DNA of 64,000 nucleotides from Squalus acanthias. Its lineage: Eukaryota. The translations under genes were made by a program, and so were the position numbers. Shown here piece after piece: positions 7,967 to 62,137 of this stretch. Positions within the stretch are counted from its first letter, which is position 1; each line of letters opens with the position of its first letter. The stretch is taken from NCBI GenBank assembly GCA_030390025.1, contig CM059431.1, positions 159,652,001-159,716,000 on the forward strand, in the 5' to 3' direction. The notes below the pieces were generated by a model. That model made no database searches, was not told the DNA's origin, and was given only the letters and a program-made list of their open reading frames with translations.

Positions 7967-8060
7967 AAAATTGAGAATAGGCACAACATGAGGTTACAGT
8001 AAAACAGCTTGATTTGAAATCACAAGCTTTCAGAGCGCTGCTCCTTCGTCAGGTGACGAA
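7967..8060 (-). mobile_element. Short Penelope-terminus (pLTR) fragment with hammerhead motif (8020-8056)
   Basis: Minus strand TCAC-CTGACGA-AGGAGCAGCGCTCT-GAAAGCTT-GTGA; homologous to the 3' end of the PLE at 18665-19828. Confidence 0.75.
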
Positions 8061-9563
8061 TGGAGGAAAACGGTGAAATATAGTGTAAGTGTAGGGAACC
8101 ACTAGTACTGGAGGAGCATGGTCACGTATAGTGTAAGTGTAGGGAACCACGAGTACTGGAGGAGCATTGTCACTTATAGAGTAAGTGTAGGGAACCACTA
8201 GTACATGAAGAGCATAGTCACATATAGTGTAAGGGTAGGGCACCACGAGTACTGGAGGAGATGGTCACATATAGTGCAAGTGTGGGGTACCACTAGTACT
8301 GGAGGAGCACGGTCACATATAGTGTAAGTGTAGGGAACCACCAGTACTGGAGGAGCACGATCGCATATAGTGTAAGTGTAGGGAACCACTAGTACTGGAG
8401 CAGCATGGTCACATATAGTGTAAGTGTAGGGAACCACTAGTACTGTAGGAGCATGGTCACATATAGTGTCAGTGTATGGAAACACTAGTACTGGAAGAGC
8501 ACGGTCACATATAGAGTAAGTGTGGGGAACCATTTGTACAGGAGGAGCTGATCACATACAGTGTAAGTGTAGGGAACCACTAGTACTGAAAGAGCACGGT
8601 CTCATATAGAGTAAGTGTGGGGAACCATTAGTACTGGAGAAGCATTGTCACATATAGTGTAAGTGTAGGGAACCGCTATTACTGGAGGACATGGTCACAT
8701 ATAAAGTAAGTGTAGCGAACCGCTATTACTGGAGGACATGGTCACATATAGAGTAAGTGTAGGGAACCGCTAGTACTGGAGGAGAAAGATCACATGTAGA
8801 GTCATTATAGGGAACCAATAGTACTGGAGGAGCATGGTCACATATAGTGCAAGTGTAGGGATTCACTAATACTGGAGGAGCAGGGTCACATATAGTGTAA
8901 GTGTGGGGAACAACTAGTACTGGAGGAGCTGGTCACATATCGTGTAAGTGTGGGGAACCATTAGTACAGGAGGAGCTGGTCAGAAATAGATTAAGTGTAG
9001 GGAACCACTAGTACTGGAGGAGAAGGTCACATATAGTGTAAGTGTGGGGAACAACTAGTACTAGAGGAGCTGGTCACATATCGTGTAAGTGTAGGGAACC
9101 TTTAGTACAGGAGGAGCTGTTCAGATATAGTTTAAGTGTAGGGAACCACTAGTTCTGGAGGAACATGGTCACATTAAAGTAAGTGTAGTGAAACACTACT
9201 ACTAGAGGAGCTGGTCTCATATAGTGTAAGTGTAGGGAACCATTAGTACTGGAGGAGCACGGTCACATATAGTGTAAGTGTAGGGAACCATAAGTACTGG
9301 AGGAGCAGGTTCACATATAGAGTAAGTATGGGGAATCACTGGTACTGGAGGAGAACGGCCAAATATAGTGTAAGCGTGGGGAATCACTCGTACTGGGGGA
9401 GCACGGTCATATATAGTGTAAGTGTAGGGAACCACTAGTACTGGAGTAGCACGGTCACATATAGTGTAAGTGTAGGGAACCAATAGTACTGTAGGACATG
9501 GTCACATATATTGTAAGTGTAGGGAACCATTAGTACTGGAGGAGCACGGTCACATATAGTGTA

Positions 9564-9769
9564 CAAAAATGACAAGTCGCACAACACCAGGTTATAGTCC
9601 AACAGATTTATTTAATTTTACAAGCTTTCGGAACAGTTCGCTCCTTCGTCAGGTAAGTTAGCAGTGAGAGAATCTCCCAGAATTCACAATTTAAACACAG
9701 ACAAAATATATTCAAATCTTTCCTACATTTTTGTCCACCCCAGTCCAACGCCGGCATCTCCACATCATG
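9564..9769. mobile_element. Short Penelope-terminus insertion: inverted pLTR piece with hammerhead motif (9618-9656, minus) plus direct 3' tail ending CTCCACATCA
   Basis: 12-bp TSD ACATATAGTGTA (9552-9563 / 9770-9781); homology to the other pLTR copies. Confidence 0.8.
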
Positions 9770-11742
9770 ACATATAGTGTAAGTATAGGGAACCGCTAGT
9801 ACTGGAGGAACAAGGTCACATATAGAGTAAGTGCAGGGAAGCACTAGTACCGGATGAGCATGGTCACATATACAGGAGGTGTAGGGAACCACAAGTACTG
9901 GAAGAGCACGGTAACATATAGTGTAATTGTAGGGAACCACTAGTACCGGATGAGCATGGTCACATATAGTGTCAGTGTAGGGAACCACTAGTACTGGATG
10001 AGCATGGTCACATATAGTGTAAGTGTAGGCAACCACTAGTACTGGAGGAGCATGCTCACATATAGAGTAATTGTAGGGAACCACTAGTACTGGTGGAGCA
10101 CGGTCACATATAGAGTAAGTGTAGGGAACCACTAGTACTAGAGGAGCATGGTCACATATAGAGTAAGTGTAGGGAACCACTAGTACTAGAGGAGCATGGT
10201 CATATATAGAGTAAGTGTGGGGAACCACTAGTACTGGAGGAGCATGCTCACAAATAGTGTAAGTGTAGGGAACCACTAGTACTGGAAGAGCAGGGTCACA
10301 CATTGTGTAAGTGTATGGAACAACTAGTACTAGAGGAGCTGGTCACATATAGTGTAAGTGTAGGGTAACATTAGTACTGGAGGAGCTGGTCATATATAGA
10401 GTAAGTGTACGGAACCACTAGTACAGGAGGAGCATGCTCACATGTACTGTAAGAGTAGGGAACCACTAGTACTGGAACAGCAGGGTCACACATTGTGTAA
10501 GTGTAGGGAGCAACTAGTACTAGAGGAGCTGGTCATATATAGTGTAAGTGTAGGGAACCACGAGTACTGCAAGAGCACGGTCACATATAGAGTAAGTGTA
10601 GGGAACCACTAATAATGGAGGAGCATGCTCACATATAGAGTAAGTGTAGGGAACCATTAGTACTAGAGGAGCATGGTCACATATAGAGTAAGTGTAGGGA
10701 ACCACTAGGATTGGAGGAGCATGATCTCATATAGTGAAAGTGTAGGGAACCATTAGTACTAGAGGAGCATGGTCACATATAGAGTAAGTGTAGGGAACCA
10801 CTAGGATTGGAGGAGCATGATCTCATATAGTGAAAGTGTAGGGAACCATTAGTACTAGAGGAGCATTGTCACAGATCGAGTAAGTTTAGGGAACCACTAG
10901 TACTGGAGGAGCATGCTCACATATACTGTAAGTGTAGGGAACCACTAGTACTGGAAGAGCAGGGTCACACATTGTGTAAGTGTAGGGAGCAACTAGTACT
11001 AGAGTAGCTGGTCATATATAGTTTAATGTAGGGAACCACGAGTACTGCAAGAGCACGGTCACATATAGAGTAAGTGCAGGGAACGACTAATACTGGAGGA
11101 GCATTATCACATATAGTGAAAGTGTAGGGAACCACTAGTACTGGAGGAGCATTATCACATATAATGTAAGTGTAGGTTCCCACTAGTACTGGAGGAGCAT
11201 TATCACATATAATGTAAGTGTAGGTTCCCACTAGTACTGGAGGAGCATTATCACATATAGTGAAAGTGTAGGGAACCATTAGTACTAGAGAAGCATTGTC
11301 ACATATCGAGTAAGTGTAGGGAACCACTAGTACTGGAGGAGCACGGTCACATACAGAGTAAGTGTAGGGAACCATACCTTCTGGTGTAGCACGGTCACAT
11401 ATAGAGTAAGTGTAGGGAACCACTAGTACTGGAGGAGCAAGGTCACATATAGTGTGAGTTTAGGGGAATCACTTGTACTGGAAGAGCATGATCACATATA
11501 GTGTAAGTGTAGGGAACCAATAGTACAGTTCAGCTGGTCACATATAAGAATATAAGAACATAAGAAATAGGAGTAGGAGTAGACCAATCGGCCACTCGAG
11601 CCTGCTCCGCCATTCAATAAGATCATGGCTGATCTGATCCAACCCCAACTCTAAAGAACACAAGAAGTAGGAGCAGGACCAGGCCACTCGGTCCCTGGGC
11701 CCGCTCTGCCACCCACAGGGCTTGACCGATCCGAACTCAAAC

Positions 11743-18664: not shown

Positions 18665-19828
18665 CTACGGACGCTGAAAAACGCCCTCATAAGAACGGGA
18701 TATGAAGCTCGACTCATCGATCGACAGTTCCGACGGGCCACAGCGAAAAATCGCATAGACCTCCTCAGAAGGCAAACACGGGACACAAGCAACAGGGTAC
18801 CCTACGTCGTCCAGTACTTCCCCGGAGCAGAGAAACTACGCCATGTACTTCGCAGCCTCCATCATGTCATCGATGACGACGAACACCTCGCTAAGGCCAT
18901 CCCCACGCCTCCACTACTTGCCTTCAAACAGCCGCCTAACCTCAGAAGTACCATCGTTCGCAGCAAATTACCCAGCTTTCAGGATAACAGCGACCACGAC
19001 ACCACACAACCCTGCCACGGCAACCTCTGCAAGACATGCCAGATCATCAACACAGATACCATCATCACACGTGAGGACACTACCCACCAGGTACATGGTA
19101 CATACTCATGTGACTCGACAACGTTGTCTACCTCATACGTTGCAGGAAAGAATGCACCACGGCATGGTACATCGGCGAGACCATGCAGACACTGAGACAA
19201 TGTATGAACGGACACCGCACAACAATCACCAGGCAGGAGTGTTCCCTCCCAGTCGGGGAACACTTCAGCAGTCAAGGACATTCAGCCTCGGATCTGCGGG
19301 TCAGCGTTCTCCAAGGCGGCCTTAGAAACACACGACAACGCAAAATCATCGAGCAGAAACTGATAGCCAAGTTTCGCACTCATGAGGACGGCCATAACCG
19401 GGATCTTGGGTTTATGTCACGATACATGACGTGATCCAGACTCGAGTCGTCGTTGGCTTGTTAACAGATGAGATTCCCAGTAAAAAAGTAAATTTTTTTA
19501 AAGTTTATCGTTTCCCATACTGCGGCTTTTGACACATTGGACCCCCTGTGGCTCCACCTCATTGTCTCCGTTGTATCTTGCTATCTCTTTGATGTGGTAC
19601 TTTCCTGGCTGACCTGATTGCCTTTTGTCACACCTCGGCAGATAAACAGTCAGAATGATTTAAATGTAGTCGTCTGCTTTTGTAAGTAACACATGCATTG
19701 TTCTCTATCTATATATGCTTTGCGATTCTGTATCTCTTTACTTCACCTGAGGAAGGGGCCACGTAAGCTCCGAAAGCTTGTGATTTCAAATAAAACTGTT
19801 GGACTATAACCTGGTGTTGTGCGACTTC
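18665..19828 (+). mobile_element. 5'-truncated Penelope-like retroelement (Neptune-like): end of RT, Cys-rich linker, GIY-YIG endonuclease, 3' pLTR with hammerhead motif
   Basis: KQPPNLR, PCHGNLCKTC, (N)VVYLIRC..C...YIGETMQTL..MNGHR, VGEHF, EQKLI..F.T..DGHN motifs; 1-bp frameshift near 19118; stop at 19434. Confidence 0.9.
19743..19783 (+). ncRNA. Minimal type-I hammerhead ribozyme motif in the PLE 3' pLTR
   Basis: UCAC-CUGAGGA-A-GGGGC[loop]GCUCC-GAAAGCUU-GUGA: catalytic core CUGANGA/GAAA, stem I UCAC/GUGA, stem II, and palindromic AAGCUU in place of stem III. Confidence 0.75.
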
Positions 19829-22800
19829 ACATATAGAGTAAGTGTAGGGAACCACTAGTACTGGAGGAGCACGGTCACATATAGAGTAAGTGTAGGGAAC
19901 CACTAGTACTGGAGGAGCACGGTCACATATAGAGTAAGTGTAGGCAACCACTAGTACTGGAGGAGCAATTTCACATATAGTGTAAGTGTAGGGAACCACT
20001 AGTACTGGAGGAGCACGGTCACATATAGAGTACGTGTAGGGAACGACTAATACTGGAGGAGCATGGTCACATGTAGAGTAAGTGTAGGGAAACAATACTA
20101 CTAGAGGAGCTGGTCACATATAGTGTAAGTGTAGGGAACCATTAGTACTGGAGGAGCACGGTCACATATAGTGTAAGTGTAGGGAACCATTAGTACTGGA
20201 GGAGCATGCTCACATATAGTGTAATTGTAAGGAACCATTAGTACTGGAGGAGCAGGGTCACATATTGTGTAAGTGTAGGGAACTACTAGTACTGGAGGAG
20301 CAATTTCACATATAGTGAAAGTGTAGGGAACCATTCGTACTGGAGGAGCATTGTCACATATAGAGTAAGTGCAGGAAACCATTCGTACTGGAGGAGCACG
20401 GTCACATTTAGTGTGAGTTTAGGGGAACCACATGTACTGGAGGTGCATGGTCACATATAATGTAAGTGTAGGGAACCACTAGTACTGGAGGAGCTGGTCA
20501 CATATAGTGTAAGTGTAGGGAACCATTAGTCCTGGAGGACATAGTAACATATAGTGTCAGTGTAGGGAACCATTAGTACTGGAGGAGCATTGTCACATAT
20601 AGAGTAAGTGTAGGGAACCACTAGTACTGGAAGAGCAGGATCACATATAGTGTAAGTGTAGGGAACCATTAGTACTGGAGGCGCATGGTCACATCTAGTG
20701 TAAGTTTAGGGAATCACTAGTACTGAAGGAGCTGGTCACATATAGAGTAAGTTTAGGGAATCACTAGTACTGAAGGAGCTGGTCACATATAGAGTAAGTT
20801 TAGGGAACCACTAGTACTGGAAGAGCATGGTCTCATATAGAGTAAGTGAAGGGATCCAATAGTACTGGAAGAGCATGGTCTCATATACAGTAAGTGTAGG
20901 GAACCATTAGTACTGGAGGTGCGTTATCACAAATAGAGTAAGTGTAGGGAACCACTGGTACTGCAGTAGCACGGTCACAAATAGAGTAACTGTAGGGCAC
21001 CACTTTTACTGGAGGAGCTGGTCACATATAGTGTAAGTGTGGGGTACCACCAGTACTGGAGGAGCTGGTCACATATAGTGTAAGTGTAGGGTACCACCAG
21101 TACTGGAGGAGCACGGTTACATATAGTGTAAGTTGAGGGAACAATTAGTAATGGAGGAGCAGGGTCACATATAGTGTAAGTGTAGGGAACCATTAGTGCA
21201 GGAGGAACATGTTCACATATAGAGTAAGTGTAGGGAAATAATACTACTAGAGGAGCTGGTCACATATAGTGTAAGTGTAGGGAACCATTAGTACTGGAGG
21301 AGCAGGGTCACATATTGTGTAAGTGTAGGGAACTACTAGTACTGGAGGAGCAATGTCACATATAGTGTAAGTGTAGGGAACCACTAGTACTGGAGGAGCT
21401 GGTCACATGTAGAGTAAGTGGAGGGAACCACTATTACAGGAGGAGCTGGTCACATCTAGTGTAAGTGTAGGGAAGCATTATTACTGGAGGAGCACGGTCA
21501 CATATAGTGTAAGTGTATGGAACCACTAGTACTGGGGGGCATGCGCACATACAGTGTAAGTGTAGGGAAAAACAAGCAATGGAGGAGCACGGTCACATAT
21601 AGTGTAAGTGTGGGGAACCAGTAGTACTGCAGGAGCACGGTAACATATAGTGTAAGTGCATGGAACCATTAGTACTGGAAGAGCAGGTTCACATTTAATT
21701 TAAGTGTAGGGAACCGCTAGTACAGGACGAGCATGGTCACATATAGTGTTAGTGTGGGGAACCACTAGTACTGGAGGAGCATGTTCTCACATAGTGAAAG
21801 TGCAGGGAACCATTAGTACTAGAGGAGCATTTCACATATCGAGTAAGTGTAGGGAACCACTAGTACTGGAGGAGCATGGACACATATAGAGTAAGTGTAG
21901 GGAACCTTTCGTACTGGAGGAGCACGGTCACATATAGAGTAAGTGGCTGGAACCATTCGTACTGGAGGAGCACGGTCACATATAGAGTAAGTGTAGGGAA
22001 CCACTAGTACTGGAGGAGCACGGTCACATATAGAGTAAGTGCAGGGAACCACCAGTACTGGAGGAGCAAGGTCACATATAGTGTGAGTTTAGCAGAACCA
22101 CTAGTACTGGAGGAGCATGATCACATATAGAGTAAGTGTAGGGAACAAATAGTACAGGAGCAGCTGGTCACATATAGTGTAAGTGTAGGGAACCACTAGT
22201 ACTGGAAAAGCAGGATCACATATAGTGTAAGTGTAGGGAACCACTAGTAATGGAGGAGCATGGTCCCATATAGAGTAAGTGTAGGGAATCACTAGTACTG
22301 GAGGAGCATGGTCATATATAGTGTAAGTGTGGGGAACCACTAGTACTGGAGGAGCATGGTCATATATAGAGTAAGTGTAGGGAACCACTAGTACTGTAGG
22401 AGCACGGTCACATATAGTGTGAATGTAGGGATCCACTAGTACTGGGGGGGTTTGGTCACATATTGAGCAAGTGTAGGGAACCACTAGTAATGGAGGTGCA
22501 CGGTCACATATTGTGTAAGTGTAGGGAACCATTAGTACTGGAGGAGCATTATAACAAATAGAGTAAGTGTAGGGAACCATTAGTACTGGAGGAGCACGGT
22601 CACATATAGAGTAAGTGTATGGAACCACTAGTAATGGAGGTGCACGGTCACATATTGTGTAAGTGTAGGGAACCATTAGTACTGGAGGAGCATTATAACA
22701 AATAGAGTAAGTGTAGGGAACCATTAGTACTGGAGGAGCACGGTCACATATAGAGTAAGTGTATGGAACCACTAGTAATGGAGGTGCACGGTCACATATT

Positions 22801-26769: not shown

Positions 26770-26884
26770 TGATGTGGAGATGCCGGCGTTGGACTGGGGT
26801 GGACAAAAATGAGAAGTCGCACAACACCAGGTTATTAAATAAATCTGTTGGACTATAACCTGGTGTTGTGCGACTTCTCATTTT
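26770..26884. mobile_element. Short Penelope-terminus inverted-repeat insertion lacking the ribozyme segment
   Basis: GAGAAGTCGCACAACACCAGGTTAT...ATAACCTGGTGTTGTGCGACTTCTC inverted arms; imperfect TSD CATATAGTGTA/CATACAGTGTA. Confidence 0.8.
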
Positions 26885-32814: not shown

Positions 32815-35800
32815 ATATAGTCACAGAGTCAAAGAGTCATAGAGTTATACAGCACAGAAAGAGTCCCTTCGGCCCATCGTGTCCGCGCTCGCCATCAAGC
32901 CCTGTCTATTCTAATCCCATTTTCCAGCACTTGGTCCGTAGCCTTGTATGCTATCGCGTTTCAAGTGCTCATCTAAATGCTTCTTGAATGTTGTGAGGAT
33001 TCCTGCCTCTACCACCCTTTCAGGCAGTGAGTTCCAGATTCCAACCACCCTCTTGGTGAAAACGTTTTTCCTCAAATCCCCTCTAAACCGCCTGCCCCTT
33101 ACCTTCAAATTATGCCCCCTGGTTATTGACCCCTCTACTAAGGGGAAAAGTTCCTTTCTATCTACCCTATCTATGCCCCTCATAATTTTGTACACCTCAA
33201 TCAGGTCCCCCCTCAGCCTTCTCTGCTCTAAGGAAAACAACCCCAGCCTGTCCAGTCTCTCTTCATAGCTGAAGCGCTCCAGACCAGGTAACATCCTGGT
33301 GAATCTCCTCTGCACCCTCTCCAATGCAATCACTTCCTTCCTATATTGTGACGACCAGAACTGCACACAGTATTCCAGCTGTGGCCTAACTAGCGTTTTG
33401 TACAGTTCTTTCATAACCTCCCTGCTCTTATATTCTATGATGCGGAGATGCCGGTGTTGGACTGGGGTGGACAATATTGAGAGGTCGCACAACACCAGGT
33501 TATAGTCCAACAGTTTTATTTGAAATCACAAGCTTTCGGAGCTATTGATTGCTCCTTCCTCACCTGAGGAAGGAGCAATCGAAAGCTCCGAAAGCTTGTG
33601 ATTTCAAATAAAACTGTTGGACTATAACCTGGTGTTGTGCGACCTCTCAATCTTATATTCTATGCCTCGGCTAATGAAGGCAAGTATCCCATATGCCTTT
33701 TTAACACCTTATCTACCTGTCCTGCTGCCTTCAGGGATCGATGTACATGCACACCAAGATCCCACTGATCTTCTGCCCCTCCTAGGGTCCTTCCATTCAT
33801 TGTGTATTCCCTTGCCTTGTTAGTCCTCCCAAAATGAATCACCTCACACTTTTCAGGGTTAAATTCCATTTGCCACTGTTCTGCCCATCTGACCAACCCG
33901 TCTATATCGTCCTGTAGCCTGAGGCTTCCCTCCTCGCTATTTCCCACTCCACCAATGTTCGTGTCATCTGCGAACTTACTGATCATACCTCCTACATTCA
34001 TATCTAAATCATTAATGTACACTACAAACAGCAAAAGACCTAGCACCGATCCCTGCGGTACAACACTGGACACAAGCTTCCAGTCACAAAACAACCTTCG
34101 ACCATCACCCTCTGCCTCCTGCCACTAAACCAATTTTGGATCCAACGTGCCAAATTGCCCTGGATCCCATGGGCTCTTACCTTCTTGGCCAGTCTCCCAT
34201 GCGGGACTTTGTAAAAAGCCTTACTGAAGTCCATGTAGACTACATCAACTGCACTACCCTCACCCACGCACCTAGTCACACCCTCGAAAAATGCAATCAT
34301 ATTCGTTAGACATGATCTCCCCCTGACAAAGCCATGCTGACTATCCTTGATTAATCCTTGTCTCTCTAAGTGGAGACTAATTCTGTCCCTCAGATTTTTT
34401 TCCAATAATTTCCCTACCACTGATGTTAGGCTCACTGGCCTGTAATTCCCTGGTTTAGCCCTACTAACCTTCTTGAATAATGGAACTACGTTAGCTGTCC
34501 TTCAGTCCTCTGGTACCTCCCCTGTGGCAAGAGAGGATCTGAAAATTTGTGTCAGAGCCCCTGCAATCTCCTCCCTTGCCTCACATAGCAGTCTGGGATA
34601 CATCTCGCCTGGGCCTGGGGATTTATCCACTTTTAAGCCAGCTAAAACCGCTAGTACCTCCTCCCTCTCAATACTAATTTGTTCAAGTATATCACAATAC
34701 CCCTGCTTGATTTATATGACTGCATCGTCCTTCTCCATAGTGAACACAGATGCAAAATATTCATTTAAAACTTCACCAACATCTTCCGGCTCTACACACA
34801 GATTGCCACTTTGGTCCCTAATGGGCGCTACTCTTTCCCTGGTTATCATCTTGCCCTCAATATACTTATAAAACAACTTGGGATTTTCCTTTATTTTGCC
34901 CACCAGTGTTTTTTCATGCCCCCTCTTCTCTCTCCTAATTTCTTTTTTAAGTACCCCCCTGCATTTTCCATACTCCTCTCGGGCTTCCACTGTTTTTAGT
35001 TTTTTGTATCTGCCAAAAGCCTCCCTTTTTTTCAAATCCATTCTTACATATCCCTTGACATCCAGTGTTCCCTGGGCTTGTTGGTCCCACCCTTGACCTT
35101 TACGGGAACATGTTGGCGTTGTACTCTCTCTATTTCCTTTCTGAAACACTCCCACTGCTCTGATGTGGATTTTCCTACAAGTAGCTGATCCCAGTCCACT
35201 TTGGCCAGATCCTGCCTTATCATATTAAAATCGTCCTTCCCCCAATTTAGAAACTTTATTTCCGGTCCATTTTTGTCCTTTTCCATGACTACCTTAAATC
35301 TCCTCGAATTATGGTCACTCTCACCAAAATGCTCTCCCACTGACACATCTAACACTTGCCCGGCTACATTCCCTAGAAGTAGGTCCAGTACCGCCCCCTT
35401 TCTTGTAGGACTTTCTACATGCTGGCTCAAAAAGCTCTCCTGGATGCACTTTAAAAATTCCGCACCCGCTAAGCCTTTCACACTCTCACTATCCCAGTTA
35501 ATATTTGGGAAGTTGAAATCTCCTACTATTATTACCCTATTATTTCTACACTTCTCTGAGATTTGCCTACATATCTGTTCCTCTATCTCCCCCTGACTGT
35601 TTGGGGGCCTATAGTTCACTCCCAGCAAATTGCTTGCCCCCTTTTTGTTTATAAGTTCTACCCATATGCCCTCATTAGAGTAACCTGCTAAGATATCATC
35701 CCTCCTTACAGCAGTAATTGACTCAATGATTAATATTGCGACACCCCCTCCTCTTTTACACCGCCCTCTGTCTCGCCTGAAGATTCTATACCCCGGAATA

Positions 35801-36578
35801 TTGAGCTGCCTGTCCTGCCCATCCCTCAACCATGTCTCTGTGATAGCAACAATATCATACCCTCATGTGTTCATCAACACCTTCAATTCATCTGCCTTAC
35901 TCGCAAGACTCCTTGCATTAAAATAAATGCCATCCTGCCTTGCCATACTGCCTTGTGCCGTTACATATTTGCTCTGCCTTCCAGGCTGATTTGTTTTTTC
36001 CCCTATATTTGGCTGTGCATCACCCCCTACTATAGCTCCACTCCGTATCCCATCCCCCTGCCAAGTTAGTTTAACCCCCCCCCCAACAGTACTTGCAAAC
36101 CTCCCCGCAAGGATGTTGGTCCCGTTCCGGTTCAGGTGCAACCCGTCCGACTTGTACAGGTCCGACCTTCCCCAGAAGCAGACCCAGTGATCCAGGAAAC
36201 TAAAGCCCTCCCTCCTGCACCAACTCTTTAGCCACGCATTCATCTGCTCTATCCTTCTATTCCTATACTCACTCGCACGTGGCACCGGGAGTAATACAGA
36301 GATTACAACCTTTGAGCTCCTGTTTTTTAATCTGCTACCTAGCTCCCTAAATTCTTGTTGCAGGACCTCATCCCTCTTTCTACCCATGTCGTTGTTACCA
36401 ATGTGAACCAGGATTTCTAACTGTTCGCCCTCCCCCTTCAGAATGCCCTGCAGCCGTTCAGTGACATCCTTGACCCTGGCACAAGGTAGGCAACATACCA
36501 TCCTGGAGTCACGTCTGCGGCTGCAGAATTGTCTATCTGTTCCCAATACGATAGAATCCCCTATCACTATTGCTCTCA
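32815..36578 (-). mobile_element. Long degraded CR1 LINE (ORF2 fragments + partial SGNH ORF1)
   Basis: ORF pieces with GDSIV/HIGNND/DGLHL, GDFNFP, QHGF, FADD and RPQLEYC motifs. Confidence 0.92.
33440..33650. mobile_element. Penelope-terminus hairpin element (inverted pLTR pair) with hammerhead motif at 33560-33601 (+)
   Basis: About 85-bp inverted arms; 14-bp TSD TCTTATATTCTATG (33426-33439 / 33651-33664). Confidence 0.88.
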
Positions 36579-37044
36579 TATAACACAGTAGATTTTTATT
36601 TTATTTTATATATTTTATTTTCAAACTGACTTTAGGTTGCTAATTTGCTTTCTGACTTTGTTGAATTTAGATTTACATTGATAACAGCAGTGGATCTCCC
36701 GTGTTATTGTTGGTAGCGAGTTGCAGGGTGAGGTGTAAGTTTAGGAAAGGCTGCACTGAGTAAGGGGAGTGACTGATTGTGGGAAGCGGATCTGGGATCT
36801 AGAAGTAACTTTGGGAGATGAGGGCTCACAGTGAATTGCTGAGTCAGCAGAAAAAGACACAAAGTCACGTGAACCTTTCGCCCACCCTTTCTCCCCAATA
36901 ACCACTGACAGTCAAGTAAGAGTGAACTGGTTTTTCTTTCCTTTAAGATAAATTTAAGTGAATCAGAAATTTCTAACCGTGTTTTTATTTACTGTTAGTG
37001 TTTCGAATGAAACGCATCACTCGCCATATCCGGTCACACATTAC

Positions 37045-38415
37045 TCATAGAATCATAGACATTTACAACAGAGAAGGAGGCCATTCGGCCCATCTTGTCC
37101 GTGCCGGCCGACAACAAGCTATCCAACCTAATACCACTTTCCAGCACTTGGTCTGTAGCATTGTAGGTTATGGCATTTCAAGTGCATATGCAAGTATTTT
37201 TGAAATGTGATGAGGGTCTCTGCCTCTACCACCATTTCAGGCAGTGAGTTCCAGACCCCCACCACCATCTGGGTGAAAAATGTTCTCCTTAAATCCCCTT
37301 TAAAACTTCCGCCAATTACTTTAAATCTATGCCCCCTGTTTATGGGCCCCTCTGCTGAGGGAAATAGGTCCTTCCTATCCACACTATCTAGGCCCCTCAT
37401 AACTTTATACACCTCAGTTAGGTCTCCCCTCAGCCTCCTCTGTTCCAAAGAAAACAAAACCAGCCTAACCAATCTTTCCTCATAGCTAAAATTCCCCAGC
37501 CCAGGCAACATCCTCGTAAATCTCCTCTTCACCCCCTCTAGTGCAATCACATCCTTCCTGTAATATTGTGACCAGAATTGCACGCAGTATTCTAGCTGAG
37601 GCCTAACTAGTGTTTTATACAGTTCAAGCATAACCTCCCTGCTCTTATATTCTATGCTGCGGCTAATAAAGGCAAGTATCCCGTATGCCTTCTTAACCAC
37701 CTTATCAACCTGTCCTGCTACTTTAGGGATCTGTGGACGTGTACGCCAAGGTCCCTCTGATCTTCTGCACTTCTCAGTGTCCTACCATTTATAGTTTATT
37801 CACTTGCCTTGTTAGCCGTCCCCAGAGGCATTGCCTCACACTTCTCCAGATTGAATTACATTTGCCACTGTTGAGCCCACCTGACCAGTCCATTGATATC
37901 TTCCTGCAGTCTGCAGCTTTCTTCTTCATTATCGACCACACTGCCAATTTATGAACCATCTGCAAAATTCCTAATCATACTTCCTACATTCAAGTCCAAA
38001 TCATTGATATATACCACAAAAAGCCAAGGACCCAGTACTAAGTCCTGCAGAACCCCAATAGAAACAGCCTTTCAATCACAAAACCACCGTTCGACCATTC
38101 CCCTTTGTTTCCTTCCTCTGAGCCAACTTTGCATCCAACTTTGCTTTCGATCCCATGGACTTTTACTTTCGTGACCAGTCTGCCAGGCGGGACCTTATTA
38201 AAAGCCTTGCTAAAATCCATATAGACTACATCAAACGAACAAACCTCATCGACCCTCCTTGTTACCTTCTCAAAATATTCAGTCAAATTAGTCAGACACG
38301 ACATTCCCTTATCAAATGCTTGTTGACTGACCATGATTAATCCGTGTCTTTCTAAATGAAGATTTATCCTGTCTCTCAGAATTGTTTCCAATAATTTTCC
38401 CACCACCGAGATTAC
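37045..38415 (-). mobile_element. 5'-truncated CR1 LINE (carries the empty PLE target site at 37643-37656)
   Basis: CATAGAATCATAGA tail; KKAYGILAFISRSIEYKSREV peptide is uninterrupted. Confidence 0.9.
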
Positions 38416-38695
38416 TAAAGATAATACATTCATAAAAATTGAAATATTACTGGAAGAGAGAAGTAACAATCCCAGAACATCAGCAATTATCTTTGAAAAT
38501 TGCCTGCAGTACTTTCACCGCATACCTTGCTTCTCTCTCTCTCTGGAACCGAATTATTAATTCTGCTGCATTTCCACAATCAAGATGCTCAGCAAAGCCG
38601 CACAGTCCAAGAATGTACCTGTACGAGTTTGAGCATCTCTCAGGAATGGACAACTCCCAGAATGCAGCAGTGATTCAGTGCGTGTTATTCCCTTT

Positions 38696-38965
38696 CATGG
38701 CTCAGTTGTCAGCATCCTCGACTTGCAGTCAGAAGGTTCAGGGTTCAAAGTCCTGCTGCAGAGACTTGAGCACAACATTCAGGCTGACACTGCGTTGCAG
38801 TGCTGAGGGAGCGCTGCACTGTCGGAGGTGCCGTCTTTCAGATGAGACGTTGAACAGAGGCCCCATCGGCTCTCTCATGTGGACGTCAAAGATCCCATGA
38901 AGCTATTTCGAGTAAGAGCCAGGGGAGTTATCCCAGGTGTCCTGGTCAATATTTATTCCTCAAAC
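38696..38965 (+). mobile_element. tRNA-derived DeuSINE (SacSINE1-like), 3'-truncated
   Basis: A box TGGCTCAGTTG, B box GGTTCAAA, Deu-domain-like GCTGCACTGTCGGAGGTGCCGTCTTTCAGATGAGACGTT. Confidence 0.8.
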
Positions 38966-39042
38966 ATCAGAGGGAGGGCTTACAGGGGAGGGGTTAGAGG
39001 GGGAATCACAGGCGGTGGAGAGTGGCAGCATGTAGGGATTAA

Positions 39043-39654
39043 TCATAGAATCATAGAAAGTTACAGAATGGAAGGAGGCCATTTCAGCCCATCATGACCG
39101 CGCCGTCCAACAAAGAGCTATCCAGCCTAATCCCACTTCCCAGCTCTTGGTCCGTAGCCCTGCAGGTTAGAGCATCCCACGTGCATATCCAAGTACTTTT
39201 TAAATGTGGTTAGGCTTCCTGCCTCTACCACCCTTTCAGGCAGTGAGTTCCAGACCCCCACAACCCTCTGGGTGAAGAAATTTCCCCTCAAATCCCCTCT
39301 AAACCTTCCCCCAATTACTTTAAATCTGTGCCCCCTGTTTTTTGAACCCTCTGCTAAGGGAAGTAGGTCCTTTCTATCCACTTTATCTATGCCCCTCATA
39401 ATTTTATACACCTCAATAAGGTCTCCCCTCAGCCTCCTCTGTTCCAAGGAAATAGACCCAGCCTATCCAGTCTTTCCTCATAGGTAAGATTCGCAACTCC
39501 CGGCAACGCCCTTGCAAAACTCCTCTGTACCCTCTCTAGTGCAATCACATCATTCCTGTAATGTGGTGACCAGAACTGCACGCAGTACTCTAGCTGAGGC
39601 CTAATTGGTGTTTTATACAGTTGAAGCATAACCCCCCTGCTCTTGTATTCTATG
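39043..39654 (-). mobile_element. CR1 LINE 3' part (continues at 54165-54313 and 56278-56420)
   Basis: CATAGAATCATAGA tail; RT C-terminal peptide that resumes after the nested insertions (VKKAYGMLAFISRGIEYK). Confidence 0.9.
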
Positions 39655-50039: not shown

Positions 50040-53000
50040 ATGAAGATAACCATAGCCAGCCTCAACATCAACGGCAGCAGGGAGGCGCGCCGTAGATTCA
50101 ATAACTTCTCGGTCCTTCGGGACGGGAAATATGCGGTGTGCTTCCTGCAAGAAACCCACACCGTTCCGGGAGACGAGGCCACGTGGCTCCTGGAGTGGCA
50201 AGGAGGGGTCAGCATGAGTCACCTCTCCAACAATTCCTGCGGGGTGGCTGTCTTGCTGGCCCCGCATTTTCAGCCGGAGATCTTGAGGGTCAAGGAGCAC
50301 GTGCCGGGCCGCTTGCTCCAGGTCACTGTTCGCCTGGGAGGCGTGCCGCTCCATTTAGTGAACGTGTACGCCCCCCGGACCGGTGCGCAGCAAGTGCGCT
50401 TCTTCGGAGAAGTGTCCGCTCTTCTGGGCTCCATCGACGTGGGCGAGTGCGTCATCCTCGGGGGGGATTTCAATTGTACCCTCGAGGCGCGGGACCGGTC
50501 GGGTCCCCCGCGAAGCCCGGCGGCGATGGAGAAGTTGCGGGACCTGGTCGGGTCCTTCGACTTGGTGGACGTCTGGCGAAATCTCCATCCCGACTCCAGC
50601 GCCTTCACGAGCGTGAGGTCTGGAGGAGGAAGGTCCAGAATCGACCGCCTTTACATTTCCCGGGCGTACGTCTCCTGCGTTCCGGCGGCTTCCATGCGGC
50701 CGGTGCCGTGCACGGACCACCACCTGGTGTGGGCGGAGCTCGCTCCGCTGCGCGCGCGGGGGGGGTCCGCGTACTGGCATTTTAACAACCTGCTGCTGGA
50801 GGACGCGCGGTTCCGGGATTCGTTTCGCCGGTTCTGGGCCGACTGGAGAAGGAAGCGGGGAGGCTTCCCCTCCTTGAGGCTATGGTGGGACGTGGGCAAG
50901 GCTCACGTCCGCGTCTTCTGTCAGGAGTACGCGAAGGGGTCGACCAAGAGGCGGGAGGCCCGGGTCGGGCGATTGGAGAAAGAAGTGCTCGACCTGGAGT
51001 CCCGTCTCGGTCAGGTCGTCGAGGACCCGGCCCTGCGGAAGGTGTACGAAGAGAAGAAGGGCGCGCTGAAGGACCTGCAGCTGGTCGGGTCCCGAGGCGC
51101 GTACGTGAGGTCGCGGATCCAGCTCCTGCGGGACCTGGACCGCGGCTCCCCCTTCTTCTACTCGCTGGAAAAAAGACGGGGGGTCCGTAAGCAGCTCTTG
51201 GGGCTGCTGGCCGGCGACGGATCTCTGGTCTCGGATCCGGAGGGCATCAGCGCGGAGGCCCGGGCCTATTACGGGGCTCTGTTCTCTTCGGATCCGTCCA
51301 GCGAGGATGCGCGCAGAGTTTTGTGGGAGGACCTGCCGAAGGTCGGCCCGGAGGGCGCCGAGAATTTAGAAGCTCCGCTAAGCCTGGCGGAGCTGACCGG
51401 CGCCCTGCGCCAGCTCTCGAGGGGCAAGTCCCCGGGGCTGGACGGGCTGACCGTGGAGTTCCACAGGGCGTTCTGGGACGTCTTGGGGGACGACTACGCG
51501 CGGGTCCTGGGGGAAAGTCTGGCGACCGGGGAGATGCCCCTCTCTTGGCGCAGGGCGGTCATCGTCCTGCTGCCCAAGAAGGGCGATCTCCGCCTACTTA
51601 AGAACTGGCGCCCGGTCTCCCTCCTCAGCACGGACTACAAAATTTTCGCCAGGGCTATGTCTGCTCGCCTTGGCACCGTGCTGGCCCGCATGATCCACCC
51701 CGACCAGTCCTACACGGTCCCGGGCCGGAGTATCCACGATAACATCCATCTGGTCCGGGACCTGGTCCACCATTCCCAGAGGGCTGGTCTGTCGGTCGCC
51801 TTCCTTTCCCTGGATCAGGAGAAGGCGTTCGACAGGGTGGATCACGAGTATCTTTTCGGGACTCTGCGCGCATTCGGGTTCGGGACGCATTTCGTCGCCC
51901 GGATCCGACTTCTGTACGCCGCCGCGGAGTGTCTGATTAAAGTTAACGGGTCTTTGACGGCGCCCCTTCGCTTCGGGAGGGGGGTGCGTCAGGGATGCCC
52001 CATGTCCGGTCAGTTATACGCTGTTTGCGTGGAGCCTTTCCTGCGCCTCTTGCGGAAGAGGTTGACGGGACTGGCTCTGCAAGGGCCGGGCGTGGAGGTG
52101 GTCCTCTCGGCTTACGCCGATGACGTGCTCCTCGCGGTCACGGATCCCGTCGACTTGCGGAGGATGCGAGAATGCCAGCAGATTTACTCGGACGCATCCT
52201 CCGCCAAGATCAACTGGGAGAAATGTTCTGGACTCCTGGTGGGCCCATGGCGGGTGGACTCCCTGCCGGAGGAGTTCGGGCCTTTCGCCTGGAGCACCAC
52301 GCACCTCCTCTACCTGGGAGTCTACCTCAGCCCGGCCGAGGACGCCTGGCCGGCGAACTGGCAAGAGCTGGAGGCCAAAGTCACCGCTCGCCTAGGACGC
52401 TGGACAGGACTGCTCCGAGTGTTGTCCTACAGGGGTCGAGCGCTGGTCATAAACCAGCTGGTGGCCGCCATGTTGTGGTACCGGTTGGTCACTTTGATCC
52501 CTCCCCCTGCGTTTGTCGCCAAGATGCAGAAGAAGCTCGTCGACTTCTTCTGGGACAAAAGGAAGCACTGGGTCTCTGCCGCGGTTTTGAGTCTCCCGCT
52601 TAGGGAGGGCGGTCAGGCGCTGGTGTGCCTTCGCACCCAGGCGGCGACTTTCCGTCTTCAGACGCTGCAGAGATACCTGTACGTGGAGAATCCTCCTAGG
52701 TGGCGTGCGCTGGCGACGTATTTCTTCCGCCAGCTGCACGGCCTCAATTACGACACGCAGCTCCTGTTTGTGAGAGTGGGTGGCACGCGTGCCAGCCTGC
52801 AGGAGCTGCCTGTCTTCTACCAGGAACTGCTATGGGTTTGGAACAGCGTCGCCTCCGAGCGCAGTTCTCCCCCGTCAGGAGCGGCGGCCGTCCTTCGGGA
52901 GCCGCTGTTCAGGAATCCGCACCTCCACGACCGCGGGTTCGGCTGGCTGGCGGAGGGCAGGGCTGTGCCCGGTAAGGTGACCAGAGTCGGGGACCTGCTC

Positions 53001-53939
53001 GATGGCGGAGGAGCGGGCTGGATGGCGCCGGAGGAGTTGGCGAGGCGCATGTCTTGGGTCAACGTCCGGCTCGCGGTCAAAGCCATCGAGTCGCTAAAAG
53101 TGGCACTGGGCCCCGTCTCCACTAGGTGTGTCGAGGAGGCTCAAGCACGTGGGGCGATCCCGTCCGAACTGACCCCCGTTCGGACGGAATTCCTTATCGG
53201 CGCCCGGCCCCGAATCCTCCCTCGGGAGCCGCCGCCTCACCACTTGAGCCTTCTCGGAGAAATGCCCTCCGTGCCCTTTCAATCCGCACGGAGGCGTTTC
53301 CTGTACGGGCTGCTCCTGCACACTCTCCACTTTGCCATCTTCGTCTGCCGTCCGGACACGCCTTGGCGTACCATCCTGCCGTCCGGCGGAGGCGAAGGTC
53401 CCCATTGGAAGGCTCTCTACGCGGGAGTCTTCCCTTGTTCTATTGGGGACTTGGCCTGGAGGGTGTTGCACGGAGCAGTCCCGTGCAATAGGATTTTAAG
53501 TAGGTTTACGGACTCCCAGGCTGCTTGCCATTTTTGCGGCCTGGAGGAGTCCGTTTATCACATTTATGTTGAATGTGAGAGGTTGCAGCCCCTCTTTCAT
53601 TATTTGAAGGGGCTGCTCCTCAATTTCTGGTTGCACTTCAGCCCCACGCTCCTGATCTACGGTCACCCGGTGCGGAGGGGAGCGGGTAGGTCGGAGGACC
53701 TCCTCGTAGGACTGCTCCTGGGCCTGGCCAAGAAAGCCATTAATTGGTCCAGGCAGCGGGCGGTCGAGGGGGTCGTTCGGCCCGATTGCCTGCCTCTCTT
53801 CCGCGGCCATGTTCGCGCCCGGGTGGCCCTGGAGATGGAGCACGCGGTGTCCGCCGGCACGCTTGAGTTTTTCCGCGACCGGTGGGCGCCGCGGGGACTG
53901 GAGTGCATCGTCACCCCGGACTTTCAAATTTTAATTTGA
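50040..53939 (+). CDS. Tx1 ORF2 copy 2, intact
   Basis: Translation identical to copy 1. Confidence 0.95.
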   Translation: MKITIASLNINGSREARRRFNNFSVLRDGKYAVCFLQETHTVPGDEATWLLEWQGGVSMSHLSNNSCGVAVLLAPHFQPEILRVKEHVPGRLLQVTVRLGGVPLHLVNVYAPRTGAQQVRFFGEVSALLGSIDVGECVILGGDFNCTLEARDRSGPPRSPAAMEKLRDLVGSFDLVDVWRNLHPDSSAFTSVRSGGGRSRIDRLYISRAYVSCVPAASMRPVPCTDHHLVWAELAPLRARGGSAYWHFNNLLLEDARFRDSFRRFWADWRRKRGGFPSLRLWWDVGKAHVRVFCQEYAKGSTKRREARVGRLEKEVLDLESRLGQVVEDPALRKVYEEKKGALKDLQLVGSRGAYVRSRIQLLRDLDRGSPFFYSLEKRRGVRKQLLGLLAGDGSLVSDPEGISAEARAYYGALFSSDPSSEDARRVLWEDLPKVGPEGAENLEAPLSLAELTGALRQLSRGKSPGLDGLTVEFHRAFWDVLGDDYARVLGESLATGEMPLSWRRAVIVLLPKKGDLRLLKNWRPVSLLSTDYKIFARAMSARLGTVLARMIHPDQSYTVPGRSIHDNIHLVRDLVHHSQRAGLSVAFLSLDQEKAFDRVDHEYLFGTLRAFGFGTHFVARIRLLYAAAECLIKVNGSLTAPLRFGRGVRQGCPMSGQLYAVCVEPFLRLLRKRLTGLALQGPGVEVVLSAYADDVLLAVTDPVDLRRMRECQQIYSDASSAKINWEKCSGLLVGPWRVDSLPEEFGPFAWSTTHLLYLGVYLSPAEDAWPANWQELEAKVTARLGRWTGLLRVLSYRGRALVINQLVAAMLWYRLVTLIPPPAFVAKMQKKLVDFFWDKRKHWVSAAVLSLPLREGGQALVCLRTQAATFRLQTLQRYLYVENPPRWRALATYFFRQLHGLNYDTQLLFVRVGGTRASLQELPVFYQELLWVWNSVASERSSPPSGAAAVLREPLFRNPHLHDRGFGWLAEGRAVPGKVTRVGDLLDGGGAGWMAPEELARRMSWVNVRLAVKAIESLKVALGPVSTRCVEEAQARGAIPSELTPVRTEFLIGARPRILPREPPPHHLSLLGEMPSVPFQSARRRFLYGLLLHTLHFAIFVCRPDTPWRTILPSGGGEGPHWKALYAGVFPCSIGDLAWRVLHGAVPCNRILSRFTDSQAACHFCGLEESVYHIYVECERLQPLFHYLKGLLLNFWLHFSPTLLIYGHPVRRGAGRSEDLLVGLLLGLAKKAINWSRQRAVEGVVRPDCLPLFRGHVRARVALEMEHAVSAGTLEFFRDRWAPRGLECIVTPDFQILI

Positions 53940-54313
53940 TTTATTAAGTTTCATTTCAAGTTTTAATTGATTTACAGTAAATTTGCGTTCTGTCAAACCA
54001 AAAAGATCAACACCAGGTTATAGTCCAACAGTTTTATTTGAAATCACAAGCTTTCGGAGCGCTGCTCCTTCGTCAGGTGAAGTGACGAAGGAGCAGTGCT
54101 CCGAAAGCTTGTGATTTCAAATAAAACTGTTGGACTATAACATGGTGTTGTGCGACTTCTCACACTTGTATTCTATGCCACGGCTAATAAAGGCAAGCAT
54201 TCCGTATGCCTTCTTAACCAAGTTATCTACTTGGCCTGCTACCTTCAGGGATCTGTGGACGTGCACTCCAATGTCCCTTTTTTCCTCTACACTACTCAGT
54301 GTCCTACCATTTA

Positions 54314-56277
54314 TAAAGTTGCCAGAAAAAGCGGTCAGCCTGAGGATAGGGATCTTTTTAGAAATCAGCAAAGGGAGACCAATAAATTGATAAAGAAAGG
54401 GAAAATGGAATATGAGCACTAACTAGCGAAAAATATCAAAACGGATTGTAAAAGCTTCTATAGATATTTGAAAAGGAAAAGACTGGCAAAGGTAAATGTA
54501 GGTCCTTTACAGTCATAGACGGGATAATTTATAATGGGGGATGAAGAAATGGCTGAGAAATTAAATAAATACTTTGTTTCTGTCTTCACGGAGGAAGACA
54601 CAAAAAAACTCCCAGAAATACGAGAATCCGAGGGTGTGCCGAGAATGAGGAACTTAAAGAAATTATTATTCGTAAAAAAAACAGTACCAGCAAATTTAAT
54701 GGGACTAAAAGTCGTTAAATCCCAAGGACCGGATGACTTACATCCTAGGGTTTTGAAAGAGGTGGCCATTGGGAGAGTGGACGCATTTGTTGTCATCTTC
54801 CAAAATTCTATAGATTCTGGAACGGTTCCTGCAGAATGGAGGATAGCAAATGTAACTCCGCTGTTTAAGAAAGGAGGGAGAGAGAAAACGGGTAACTACA
54901 GACCTGTTAGCCTCACATCAGTGGTTGGGAAAATGCTGGAATCTATTATAAAGATGCAATAACTGGGCAATTAGAAACTAATAGTAAGATTGGGCAGAGT
55001 CAACATGGATTTATGAAATGGAAATCCTGTTTAACAAACCTATTGGAGTTCTTTGAGGTTATAACTAGTGGAGTAGACAAAGGGGAACTGGTAGATGTGG
55101 TGTATTTGGGTTTTCAGAAGGCCTTCAATAAGGTCCCGCAGAAGAGGTTGGTGAACAAATTTAGGGCACATGGAATGGGGGTAATATACTAGCATGGATT
55201 GAGAATTGGTTAACAGACAGAAAACAAAGAGTAGGGATAAACGTGTCTTTTTCAGGATGGCAGGTGGGGTACCGCAAGGATCAGTGCTTGGACCCCAGCT
55301 ATTCACAAACTATATCAATGATTTGGATGAGGAGACTAAATGCAACATTTCCAAATTTCCTGATGATACAAAGCTAGGTGGCAGTGTCAGTTGCGAAGAG
55401 GATGTGAAGTGGCTTCAAGGGGATCTCGACAGGCTCAGTAAGTTGGCGAGAAGATGGCAGATGGAATATAATGTGGATTAATGTGAAGTTATCCAATGGG
55501 TAGAAAAAACAGAAAGGCAGAGTATTTCCTAAATGGTAAAAGATTGGGGAATGCAGATGCTGAAAGGGACCTGGGTGTCCTTGTACATGAGTCACAGAAA
55601 GTTAATGTGCAGGTGCAGCAAGTTTTTAGGAAGGCAAATGGTATGCTGGCCTTCATTACAAGAGGATTTGAGTACAGCAGTAAAGAAGTCTTACTCCAAT
55701 TATATAGGGCCTTGGTGAGAACACACCTGGAGTACTGTGTACAATTTTGGTCTCCTTACCTAGGGAAGGATATACTTGCCATACAGGGAGTGCAAAGAAG
55801 GTTCACGAGATTCATTCCTGGGATGGCGGGACTGTCGTATGAGAAGAGATTGAGTAAACTAGGCCTGTATTCTCTTGAATTCAGAAGGATGAGAGGGGAT
55901 CTCATTGAAGCATATTAAATTATTGCAGGGCTTGATAGGATGGATGCTGGGAGAATGTTTCCCTTGGCTGGGGAAGTCTAGAGCCAGAGGCCACGGCCTC
56001 AAGATAAAGGGTAGGCCATTCCGGACTGAGATGAGAAGAAATTTCTTTTCACAGAGGGTGGTGAATCTTTGGAATTCTCTACCCCAGAGGGTTGTGGAGG
56101 CTCAGTCATTGCGTATATTCAAAACAGAAGTCGCTGGATTTCTGACTAGTAAGGGCATCAAGGGATATGGCGATAGGGCCGGTGAATGGAGTTGAGGCAG
56201 AAGATCTCATTGAATGGCGGAGCAGGCTCGAAGCGCCGAATGGCCGACTCCTGCTCCGATTTCTTATGTTCTTATGT
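54314..56277 (+). mobile_element. 5'-truncated CR1 LINE inserted antisense within the minus-strand CR1
   Basis: LNKYFVSVFT, GNYRPVSLTS, GVPQGSVLGP and RTHLEYCVQFW peptides; TTCTTATGTTCTTATG tail. Confidence 0.9.
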
Positions 56278-62051: not shown

Positions 62052-62137
62052 AGAAGTCGCACAACACCAGATTATAGTCCAACAGCTTTATTTGAAATCA
62101 TAAGCTTTCGGAGCGCTGCTCCTTCGTCAGGTGAAGT
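62052..62137 (-). mobile_element. Short Penelope-terminus fragment with hammerhead motif (62098-62134)
   Basis: Imperfect TSD CTTCATTTCTTGTT/CTTCCTTTCTTGTT; same sequence family as the other pLTR copies. Confidence 0.8.

What the first reader, a model, noticed from the sequence alone, without database searches (positions are those of the whole stretch)
33426..39654. Penelope hairpin elements inserted independently at the identical nucleotide of two different CR1 copies; a third CR1 shows the empty site
Seen: insertions at 33440 (TSD TCTTATATTCTATG) and 39655 (TSD CTTGTATTCTATG) both fall in the codons for G-I-E-Y-K-S of CR1 ORF2, in the same orientation. The CR1 at 37643-37656 has the same site unoccupied. 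The two inserts differ in hammerhead stem II loop (AATCGAAA vs AGC/AGT), core (CUGAGGA vs CUGACGA), hairpin centre and end point. Inference: these are independent events at a preferred target rather than one ancestral insertion, implying more sequence specificity than usually attributed to endonuclease-bearing PLEs.
Basis: partly seen in the sequence, partly recalled or inferred. Interest (0 to 1): 0.7.

Follow-up and report, generated by a model that had tools for sequence, protein, structure and literature searches.

The report
Penelope retroelement with a preferred site
A Penelope-type jumping gene in a shark-like genome landed twice, independently, at the same base of another repeat, most likely because it prefers a short near-palindromic DNA sequence that this repeat happens to contain and that also draws it into an unrelated satellite.

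Summary
Two short Penelope-like (PLE) hairpins sit at the same nucleotide of two CR1 copies, each with a 13-bp duplication; a third copy is empty. They are independent events. The two hosts are the least alike pair (77.6%; host C to the empty copy 85.0%), and each duplication carries its own host's allele on both sides.

The preference is not for CR1 as such. Of 7 PLE insertions in the window, 2 are at this site and 4 at one register of an unrelated 48-bp satellite. One lies elsewhere in a CR1, off-motif. The satellite 13-mer picks the CR1 site as its unique best match among 7,056 positions (10/13; 16 of 20,000 composition shuffles do as well). The shared core is a near-palindrome, CWTA-N5-TAWG.

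Best reading: a Neptune-type endonuclease with a degenerate site preference turns an abundant repeat into a hot spot. The genome-wide test could not be run, so this rests on one window. Earlier notes in this scan covered these hairpins and the Tx1 elements inside insert 2, not this target motif.

The parts
32836..33439 (-). Host CR1 copy A, 3' part (end of ORF2 and 3' UTR)
   Evidence: blastn map; ORF 32911-33525. The label CR1 rests on APE+RT domains and on recall of the octamer tail.
33427..33439 (.). Left copy of the 13-bp target duplication of insert 1; the last 3 nt may be microhomology with the element tail
33440..33651 (.). Insert 1: head-to-head solo pLTR hairpin. About 36-nt tail (33440-33475), arms 33473-33562 and 33565-33654, one minimal hammerhead motif per arm
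   Evidence: inverted repeat 90 nt, 97%; self-alignment; stem II folds in the minus-strand arm; no Rfam match
33652..33664 (.). Right copy of the target duplication of insert 1
33665..36600 (-). Host CR1 copy A, 5' part (RT, APE endonuclease, upstream ORF; frameshifted)
   Evidence: ORFs; RVT_1 and Exo_endo_phos
37053..38409 (-). CR1 copy B, 5'-truncated, with the empty site at 37644-37656
39051..39654 (-). Host CR1 copy C, 3' part; left target duplication at 39642-39654
39655..39750 (.). Insert 2, left piece: tail and start of the tail-bearing arm
   Evidence: 92.7% to insert 1 over 96 nt
39751..54007 (+). Two tandem Tx1-type LINEs nested inside insert 2 (later events, not part of the targeting claim)
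   Evidence: 99.93% identical; ORFs 42870-46790 and 50019-53939; APE, RT, zf-RVT in the first; junctions
54008..54164 (.). Insert 2, right piece: hairpin with arms 54008-54075 and 54083-54150
54165..54314 (-). Right target duplication of insert 2 (54165-54177) and 5' remnant of CR1 copy C
7967..8068 (.). S1: tailless pLTR arm in the 48-bp satellite; left junction at motif position 11-12 (motif starts 7955); right side deleted
9564..9770 (.). S2: two-armed PLE insert in the satellite, tail on the right; 11-bp duplication at 9553 and 9771
18665..19829 (+). S3: 5'-truncated PLE in the satellite with linker CX4CxxC, frameshifted GIY-YIG domain, 3' UTR and the same pLTR; 3' junction at motif position -2 to +1; no clear duplication
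26772..26884 (.). S4: short PLE hairpin in the satellite, tail on the left (opposite orientation to S2); 11-13-bp duplication at 26759 and 26885
62052..62137 (-). E: single tailless pLTR arm in the APE region of another CR1, 14-bp duplication (62038, 62138), off-motif: the counter-example

Best explanation
Two independent insertions of a Neptune-type EN+ Penelope-like element, directed by a degenerate, near-palindromic target of about 13 bp (CWTA-N5-TAWG; possibly extending one-sidedly to about 21 bp). The I-E-Y-K codons of this CR1 lineage happen to spell the best such site in the element, so a very abundant repeat becomes a single-nucleotide hot spot. The same motif in an unrelated 48-bp satellite is hit in the same register. 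Shown: independence, shared motif, 10-13-bp duplications, one tailed and one tailless arm facing outwards. Inferred mechanism: the GIY-YIG endonuclease, probably in a dimer, nicks both strands 10-13 nt apart. Each 3' end primes a short cDNA from one of the two internal start sites of the element RNA, and the two cDNAs join at 1-3 nt of microhomology near the 5' edge of the hammerhead. Pairing of the target's ATG end with the tail's CAU may sharpen the register.
For: Independence: host identities A-C 575/741, A-B 593/741, B-C 631/742, with no rise next to the site (A-C 81/100 and 81/99, B-C 91/100 and 86/99). Host-specific allele in both TSD copies. Insert-specific variants shared by both arms of each hairpin. 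Motif: 4 of 4 satellite insertions have a junction at the same register and differ in structure, subtype and orientation. The satellite 13-mer ranks the CR1 site first of 7,056 position/strand windows in copy A (10/13, next 9), first of 2,690 in B, and joint first of 1,458 in C. Reciprocally, the CR1 13-mer ranks the used satellite site first of 96 (10 and 9 for its two strands, next 7). Composition-preserving shuffles reach the match in 16 of 20,000 for the 13-mer and 121 of 20,000 for the conservative 11-mer. The satellite is not detectably CR1-derived (136-163 of 200 shuffles align as well). Of 6 CR1 copies covering the site, 2 of 3 with the intact core are filled and 0 of 3 with a degenerate core. 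Mechanism by analogy: the anole Poseidon protein cleaves and extends both strands, is modelled as a dimer and starts RT at two internal sites that bound the tail (PMC11167929).
Against: One window, 7 insertions, only two distinct target sequences. 1 of 7 (E) is off-motif: 5/13 to the satellite site, with 350 of 1,376 windows scoring as well. The 13-nt length and register were chosen after looking; other registers rank the site among the top 4 to 41 of about 7,060. The satellite site is also that unit's most AT-rich part (8 of 48 windows with AT of 9 or more), so the register coincidence alone has a chance of about 0.05 under an AT-only null (my arithmetic). A CR1 at 11540-15939 landed at the same satellite position, which hints at a general hot spot. 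Motif-free satellite arrays hold 0 insertions in 6.3 kb, but that is not significant (about 0.26 by length, my arithmetic). One perfect site (copy B) and most of 185 satellite motif copies are empty. The observed duplications (positions 1 to 10-13) are not clearly symmetric about the palindrome centre.
Confidence: 0.65

Rival explanations
1. Independent insertions, but driven only by a loose AT-rich or DNA-shape/chromatin preference plus 3-nt ATG/CAU priming microhomology; the palindrome is incidental.
For: Published PLE endonuclease preferences are loose (AT-rich, 5'-ATT-3'; PMC11167929). The CR1 site is in the top 8% of AT-rich 13-mers. A CR1 also chose the satellite site. E is off-motif.
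Against: Among 584 AT-rich 13-mers of copy A only 4 reach 9/13 to the satellite site, and only the used one reaches 10. Composition-preserving shuffles rarely match.
Confidence: 0.2
2. Evolved, near-obligate targeting of CR1 ORF2, in the manner of R2 or Tx1 (a safe-haven strategy).
For: Same nucleotide and orientation in 2 of 3 CR1 insertions. Similarity between the two targets runs on to 16/21, which suggests a long site.
Against: 5 of 7 insertions are not at this CR1 site: 4 in a satellite, 1 elsewhere in CR1. The empty form of the site is the one listed in public shark-like runs.
Confidence: 0.05
3. Chance coincidence, picked out because the scan reads very many windows.
For: The pair was selected post hoc; both repeats are very abundant (depths of the same order in 3 of 4 runs).
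Against: The satellite insertions were not part of the selection, yet they predict the site.
Confidence: 0.06
4. One ancestral insertion, spread by duplication, retrotransposition of an insert-bearing CR1, or gene conversion between CR1 copies.
For: Identical position, orientation, duplication length and tailless end point.
Against: The hosts are not sisters (BC|A 95 vs AC|B 39, p=1.4e-6). The same substitution would have had to occur in both TSD copies of one host. Hairpin centres differ. No conversion tract flanks the site.
Confidence: 0.04

Closest known systems
Neptune-clade EN+ Penelope-like elements (PMC8557442, passages read)
   Same: C-terminal GIY-YIG, CX2-5CxxC linker, pLTRs, inverted 5'-truncated copy, 30-40-nt tail, hammerhead motif; reported insertion bias, ascribed to the linker.
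   Different: The reported bias is for microsatellites, such as (TA)n in Naiad and Hydra. Here the targets are non-repetitive near-palindromes hit at a fixed register with a measurable 10-13-bp duplication.
Poseidon element PAc of Anolis carolinensis (PMC11167929, main-text section read in full)
   Same: Two internal RT start sites bounding the tail; both strands cleaved and extended; predicted dimer. These account for the tailed/tailless hairpin.
   Different: Other clade; measured preference is only AT-rich DNA and 5'-ATT-3'.
Penelope elements of Adineta vaga (PMC3846280, passages read)
   Same: Head-to-head inverted pLTRs with palindromes at the junction, optional tail, 8-10-bp TSDs, insertion into other retrotransposons.
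   Different: No target consensus beyond simple AT-rich sequence in the passages read; inversion explained there by self-priming, not by priming from two nicks.
Nested-TE insertion hot spots in the human genome (PMC2836564, abstract and passages read)
   Same: Single-nucleotide hot spots inside an abundant target TE, used to derive the inserted family's integration motif.
   Different: Covers Alu, L1, hAT, ERV1 and MaLR; the word Penelope does not occur in its main text.
PLE-X families of spike mosses targeting 28S rDNA (PMC8557442)
   Same: A PLE inserting at a precise position in a repeated sequence.
   Different: These lack the endonuclease and have one target; this family has one and uses at least two unrelated hosts, plus off-motif sites.

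Membership tests
EN+ Penelope-like elements | RT followed by a C-terminal GIY-YIG endonuclease with the CCHH motif | tested here: met
   The hairpins are non-coding. Copy S3 carries the same pLTR in line with an ORF end that is 86-89% identical to P0003; P0003 has RVT_1. The GIY-YIG and C-C-H-H residues were read by eye; Pfam gave no GIY-YIG hit.
EN+ Penelope-like elements | pLTR in inverted arrangement with an optional 30-40-nt tail at one end | tested here: met
   tail of about 36 nt on one arm only in both inserts.
EN+ Penelope-like elements | Minimal hammerhead motif in the pLTR (PMC4209133, passages read) | tested here: met
   Motif level only: core, stem II and palindromic AAGCUU by eye; stem II folds in 5 of 6 pieces. 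Rfam found 0 matches at gathering threshold.
EN+ Penelope-like elements | Self-cleavage of the hammerhead | not testable with these tools
   Needs a bench assay.
Neptune clade | CX2-5CxxC linker before the endonuclease | tested here: met
   CX4CxxC in S3 and a matching pattern in 18 of 27 relatives. Nematis shares this kind of motif.
Neptune clade | Placement in the Neptune group on an RT tree | not tested
   No reference set of named PLE RTs was at hand.
Neptune clade | Insertion bias for microsatellites | tested here: not met
   0 of 7 insertions lie in a simple microsatellite; targets are CR1 coding DNA (3) and a 48-bp satellite (4). This is a reported habit rather than a strict definition.
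Obligately sequence-specific retrotransposons (R2/Tx1 style) | Nearly all copies at one site of one target family | tested here: not met
   2 of 7 at the CR1 site, 4 of 7 in a satellite, 1 of 7 off-motif.
Obligately sequence-specific retrotransposons (R2/Tx1 style) | Genome-wide peak at one target position | tested here: inconclusive
   No genome held; contigs laid on CR1 A showed 15 joints with 368 not shown, and 24 loose ends with 6,727 not shown.
CR1-clade LINE (host) | APE endonuclease plus RT in ORF2 and a short repeat tail | tested here: met
   Pfam Exo_endo_phos and RVT_1; tail repeats seen. The clade name itself is from recall, not from a tree.

The most novel reading that the evidence does not exclude
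A vertebrate endonuclease-bearing Penelope family recognises a defined 13-21-bp site, in the manner of a homing endonuclease: a palindromic core read by a dimer plus a one-sided purine-rich extension that sets orientation (5 of 6 on-motif insertions face the same way). It inserts by priming from both nicks. A large share of its copies would then sit at one codon of CR1 and one register of a satellite across sharks.
Probability: 0.3. Interest if true: 0.65.

Novelty: new variant of a known kind. Interest (0 to 1): 0.45.

Why it matters
How Penelope-like elements choose and resolve their targets is open: published preferences are only 'AT-rich', 'ATT' or microsatellites, where duplications often cannot be read. 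A defined site with a readable 10-13-bp duplication gives a concrete substrate for testing two standing ideas: that the Zn-finger-like linker sets target choice, and that the head-to-head hairpins come from priming at both nicks. It also warns that pLTR insertions in sharks can be homoplasious, so shared presence at a CR1 site is not proof of common descent. The family has relatives in at least five named shark genera, so the test is easy on public assemblies.

Tried and rejected

Pattern scans for pLTR sequence found 0 matches in metagenome contigs, viral contigs and genome contigs; blastn against phages found none.

Contigs of 4 of 20 listed public runs were laid on CR1 copy A. They confirmed that both repeats are abundant and showed the empty form (joint 33427 to 33653 in X1; loose ends at 33651 in X1 and X15). 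The tables were cut and gave no usable sample of PLE flanks. The one listed PLE-to-CR1 joint elsewhere (33651 to 34515, side 22) reads as a misalignment of the tail, and I discarded it.

Searches for in-frame tail/CR1 junction peptides found no candidate. The HMMER scan gave 1 hit, a repetitive 4,818-aa worm protein without the tail peptide, which I rejected.

Rfam found no match. A CR1 origin of the satellite was tested and not supported. The 'different end point' argument was rejected.

Look-ups of earlier findings by sequence, words and nearness returned nothing. Passages of 10.64898/2026.07.22.740005, PMC5753468, PMC13565253 and PMC12602865 held nothing on PLE targets. PMC522041 is not held. 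No structure or complex prediction was run, as none would decide the question.
Full report
Setting. The window is a repeat-rich stretch of a shark-like genome: the PLE ORF fragment's nearest named relatives are from Heptranchias, Mustelus, Scyliorhinus, Chiloscyllium and Hemiscyllium. Its first 28 kb are 39- and 48-bp satellites; the rest is mostly LINEs. No whole genome was held.

Observation. Insert 1 (33440-33651) lies in CR1 copy A between two copies of CTTATATTCTATG. Insert 2 begins at 39655 in copy C, is interrupted by two tandem Tx1-type LINEs and ends at 54164, between two copies of CTTGTATTCTATG. Copy B has the site once, at 37644-37656. Each insert is a head-to-head pair of pseudo-LTR pieces, one with a tail of about 36 nt and one without. 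The end points are not different: once the ambiguous T is set aside both duplications are 13 bp and both tailless arms stop at the same column. The last three bases of the left duplication (ATG) may come from the element. The tail runs on as CATGA in copy S2, and S4 shows ATG where the satellite has AAG. The target-derived stagger is therefore 10-13 nt.

What the element is. A longer copy in the satellite (S3, 18665-19829) carries the same pLTR downstream of an ORF end that is 86-89% identical to a shark protein with an RT domain. It shows a CX4CxxC linker and a GIY-YIG-type core with two internal cysteines, read by eye. Pfam did not call the endonuclease. This fits an EN+ PLE with the linker described for Neptune and Nematis (PMC8557442, passages); I built no RT tree. 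The hammerhead is a motif-level call: stem II folds in 5 of 6 pieces, Rfam finds nothing, and the minimal type is described in PMC4209133 (passages).

Independence. The insert-bearing hosts are the least alike pair: A-C 77.6%, A-B 80.0%, B-C 85.0%; informative columns BC|A 95, AB|C 57, AC|B 39 (p=1.4e-6 for 95 vs 39). Identity does not rise next to the site, so there is no conversion tract. Both duplication copies in A read TAT and both in C read TGT, which a single ancestral event would need to explain by the same change twice. The inserts are 178/207 alike overall, and 98/103 and 62/66 outside the centre, against 575/741 for the hosts. I put independence at about 0.95.

Is the target CR1, or a motif? 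blastn found 7 PLE insertion events in the window (10 merged hits). Three are in CR1 and four in the 48-bp satellite. All four satellite insertions have a junction at the same register of the unit. S2 and S4 both duplicate the same 11-13 bp, in opposite orientations; S1 gives only a left junction; S3 joins at positions -2 to +1 with no clear duplication. They differ in structure and subtype, so I count them as separate events. The satellite 13-mer CATATAGTGTAAG ranks the CR1 site first of 7,056 windows in copy A (10/13), first of 2,690 in B and joint first of 1,458 in C. The CR1 13-mer ranks the used satellite site first of 96. Shuffles that keep base composition match as well in 16 of 20,000 trials; for the 11-mer that both S2 and S4 certainly duplicate, in 121 of 20,000. 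The common core CWTA-N5-TAWG is self-complementary. Outside the satellite region it occurs 3 times in about 35 kb, all at this CR1 site. The likeness runs on to 16 of 21 on one side, and 5 of the 6 on-motif insertions face the same way relative to it. The satellite shows no general homology to CR1. Of 6 CR1 copies spanning the site, the 3 with a degenerate core are empty and 2 of the 3 others are filled.

Against this reading. The seventh insertion (E, 62052-62137) is in a CR1 endonuclease region at a site that matches the satellite 13-mer at only 5/13. The register and length were chosen after looking; neighbouring choices put the site among the top 4 to 41 of about 7,060. The satellite site is the unit's most AT-rich part, and a CR1 landed there too. 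The absence of insertions from motif-free arrays is not significant. Only two distinct target sequences define the motif. Contigs from 4 public runs could not supply a genome-wide sample, and no other collection held the family's DNA.

Mechanism. In vitro, an anole PLE protein cleaves and extends both strands, is modelled as a dimer, prefers AT-rich DNA and 5'-ATT-3', and starts reverse transcription at two internal sites that bound the tail (PMC11167929, main text read). Carried over by analogy, two nicks 10-13 nt apart on a two-fold symmetric site each prime a short cDNA, one from each start site. These join near the hammerhead with 1-3 nt of overlap (read by eye). This explains the shared end point without common descent. 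It is inference. Self-priming on an antisense template, proposed for rotifer elements (PMC3846280, passages), also yields inversions.

Comparison with what is known. The element type, hairpin, tail and ribozyme are known. Target bias in EN+ PLEs is reported as moderate or as microsatellite bias, and precise targeting only for EN-less plant families (PMC8557442). Hot spots of one TE inside another are a general phenomenon (PMC2836564, abstract and passages). Eight literature searches turned up no title or abstract describing a defined palindromic target for an EN+ PLE or a PLE hot spot in CR1. Key older papers, Repbase and supplementary files were not seen, so novelty is provisional. Earlier notes in this scan describe the hairpins as known and report the Tx1-in-pLTR targeting many times; none of those shown deals with the PLE's own target.

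Verdict. Real, independent, and probably the visible tip of a degenerate sequence preference rather than of CR1-specific targeting. New variant of a known kind; interest 0.45, limited by the single-window sample.

Noticed in passing
window 39705-54031: Two tandem, 99.93% identical Tx1-type LINEs with open ORF2 (1,306 aa stop to stop) sit inside the pLTR arm of insert 2. The duplication is 24 bp, and each element starts with a further 22 nt of pLTR-like sequence that differs from the host arm and ends at the AAGCTT palindrome of the hammerhead. Reported many times elsewhere in this scan.
   Followed up: partly
window 62038-62159: The off-motif insertion E sits where the CR1 target matches the PLE's own tail for 12 nt, across the inferred nick. 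It is the only such 12-mer outside PLE copies in the window. This may be a second, tail-guided route: RNA-DNA pairing, or endonuclease recognition of tail-like DNA.
   Followed up: partly
window 11540-15939: A CR1 of the other tail type is inserted at the same satellite position as the PLEs, with about 6 bp duplicated and microhomology to its tail repeat.
   Followed up: partly
window 33427-33434 and CR1 tails such as 39045-39057: Eight bases of the ORF2 target equal the CR1 tail octamer in reverse orientation; no PLE was seen in any CR1 tail in this window.
   Followed up: no
window 32911-33525 (-) and 39474-39728 (-): In both inserts the PLE tail reads in frame into the last part of CR1 ORF2, giving a 204-aa chimeric frame in copy A. 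No such protein was found in the databases; probably incidental.
   Followed up: yes
window 10-28025: Related 39-, 48- and 49-bp satellite arrays lie side by side, separated by related AT-rich spacers (5331-5541 and 28799-29009 are an 85% inverted pair). Only the later 48-bp variant carries the CWTA-N5-TAWG motif.
   Followed up: no
window 29234-30190 (+): A 318-aa open frame that looks by eye like a seven-transmembrane G-protein-coupled receptor gene; not searched.
   Followed up: no
window 8050-8068, 33560-33566, 54075-54084, 62130-62137: The 5' truncation points of most short pLTR arms cluster at the 5' edge of the hammerhead, which suggests a common RNA start or RT stop there.
   Followed up: no
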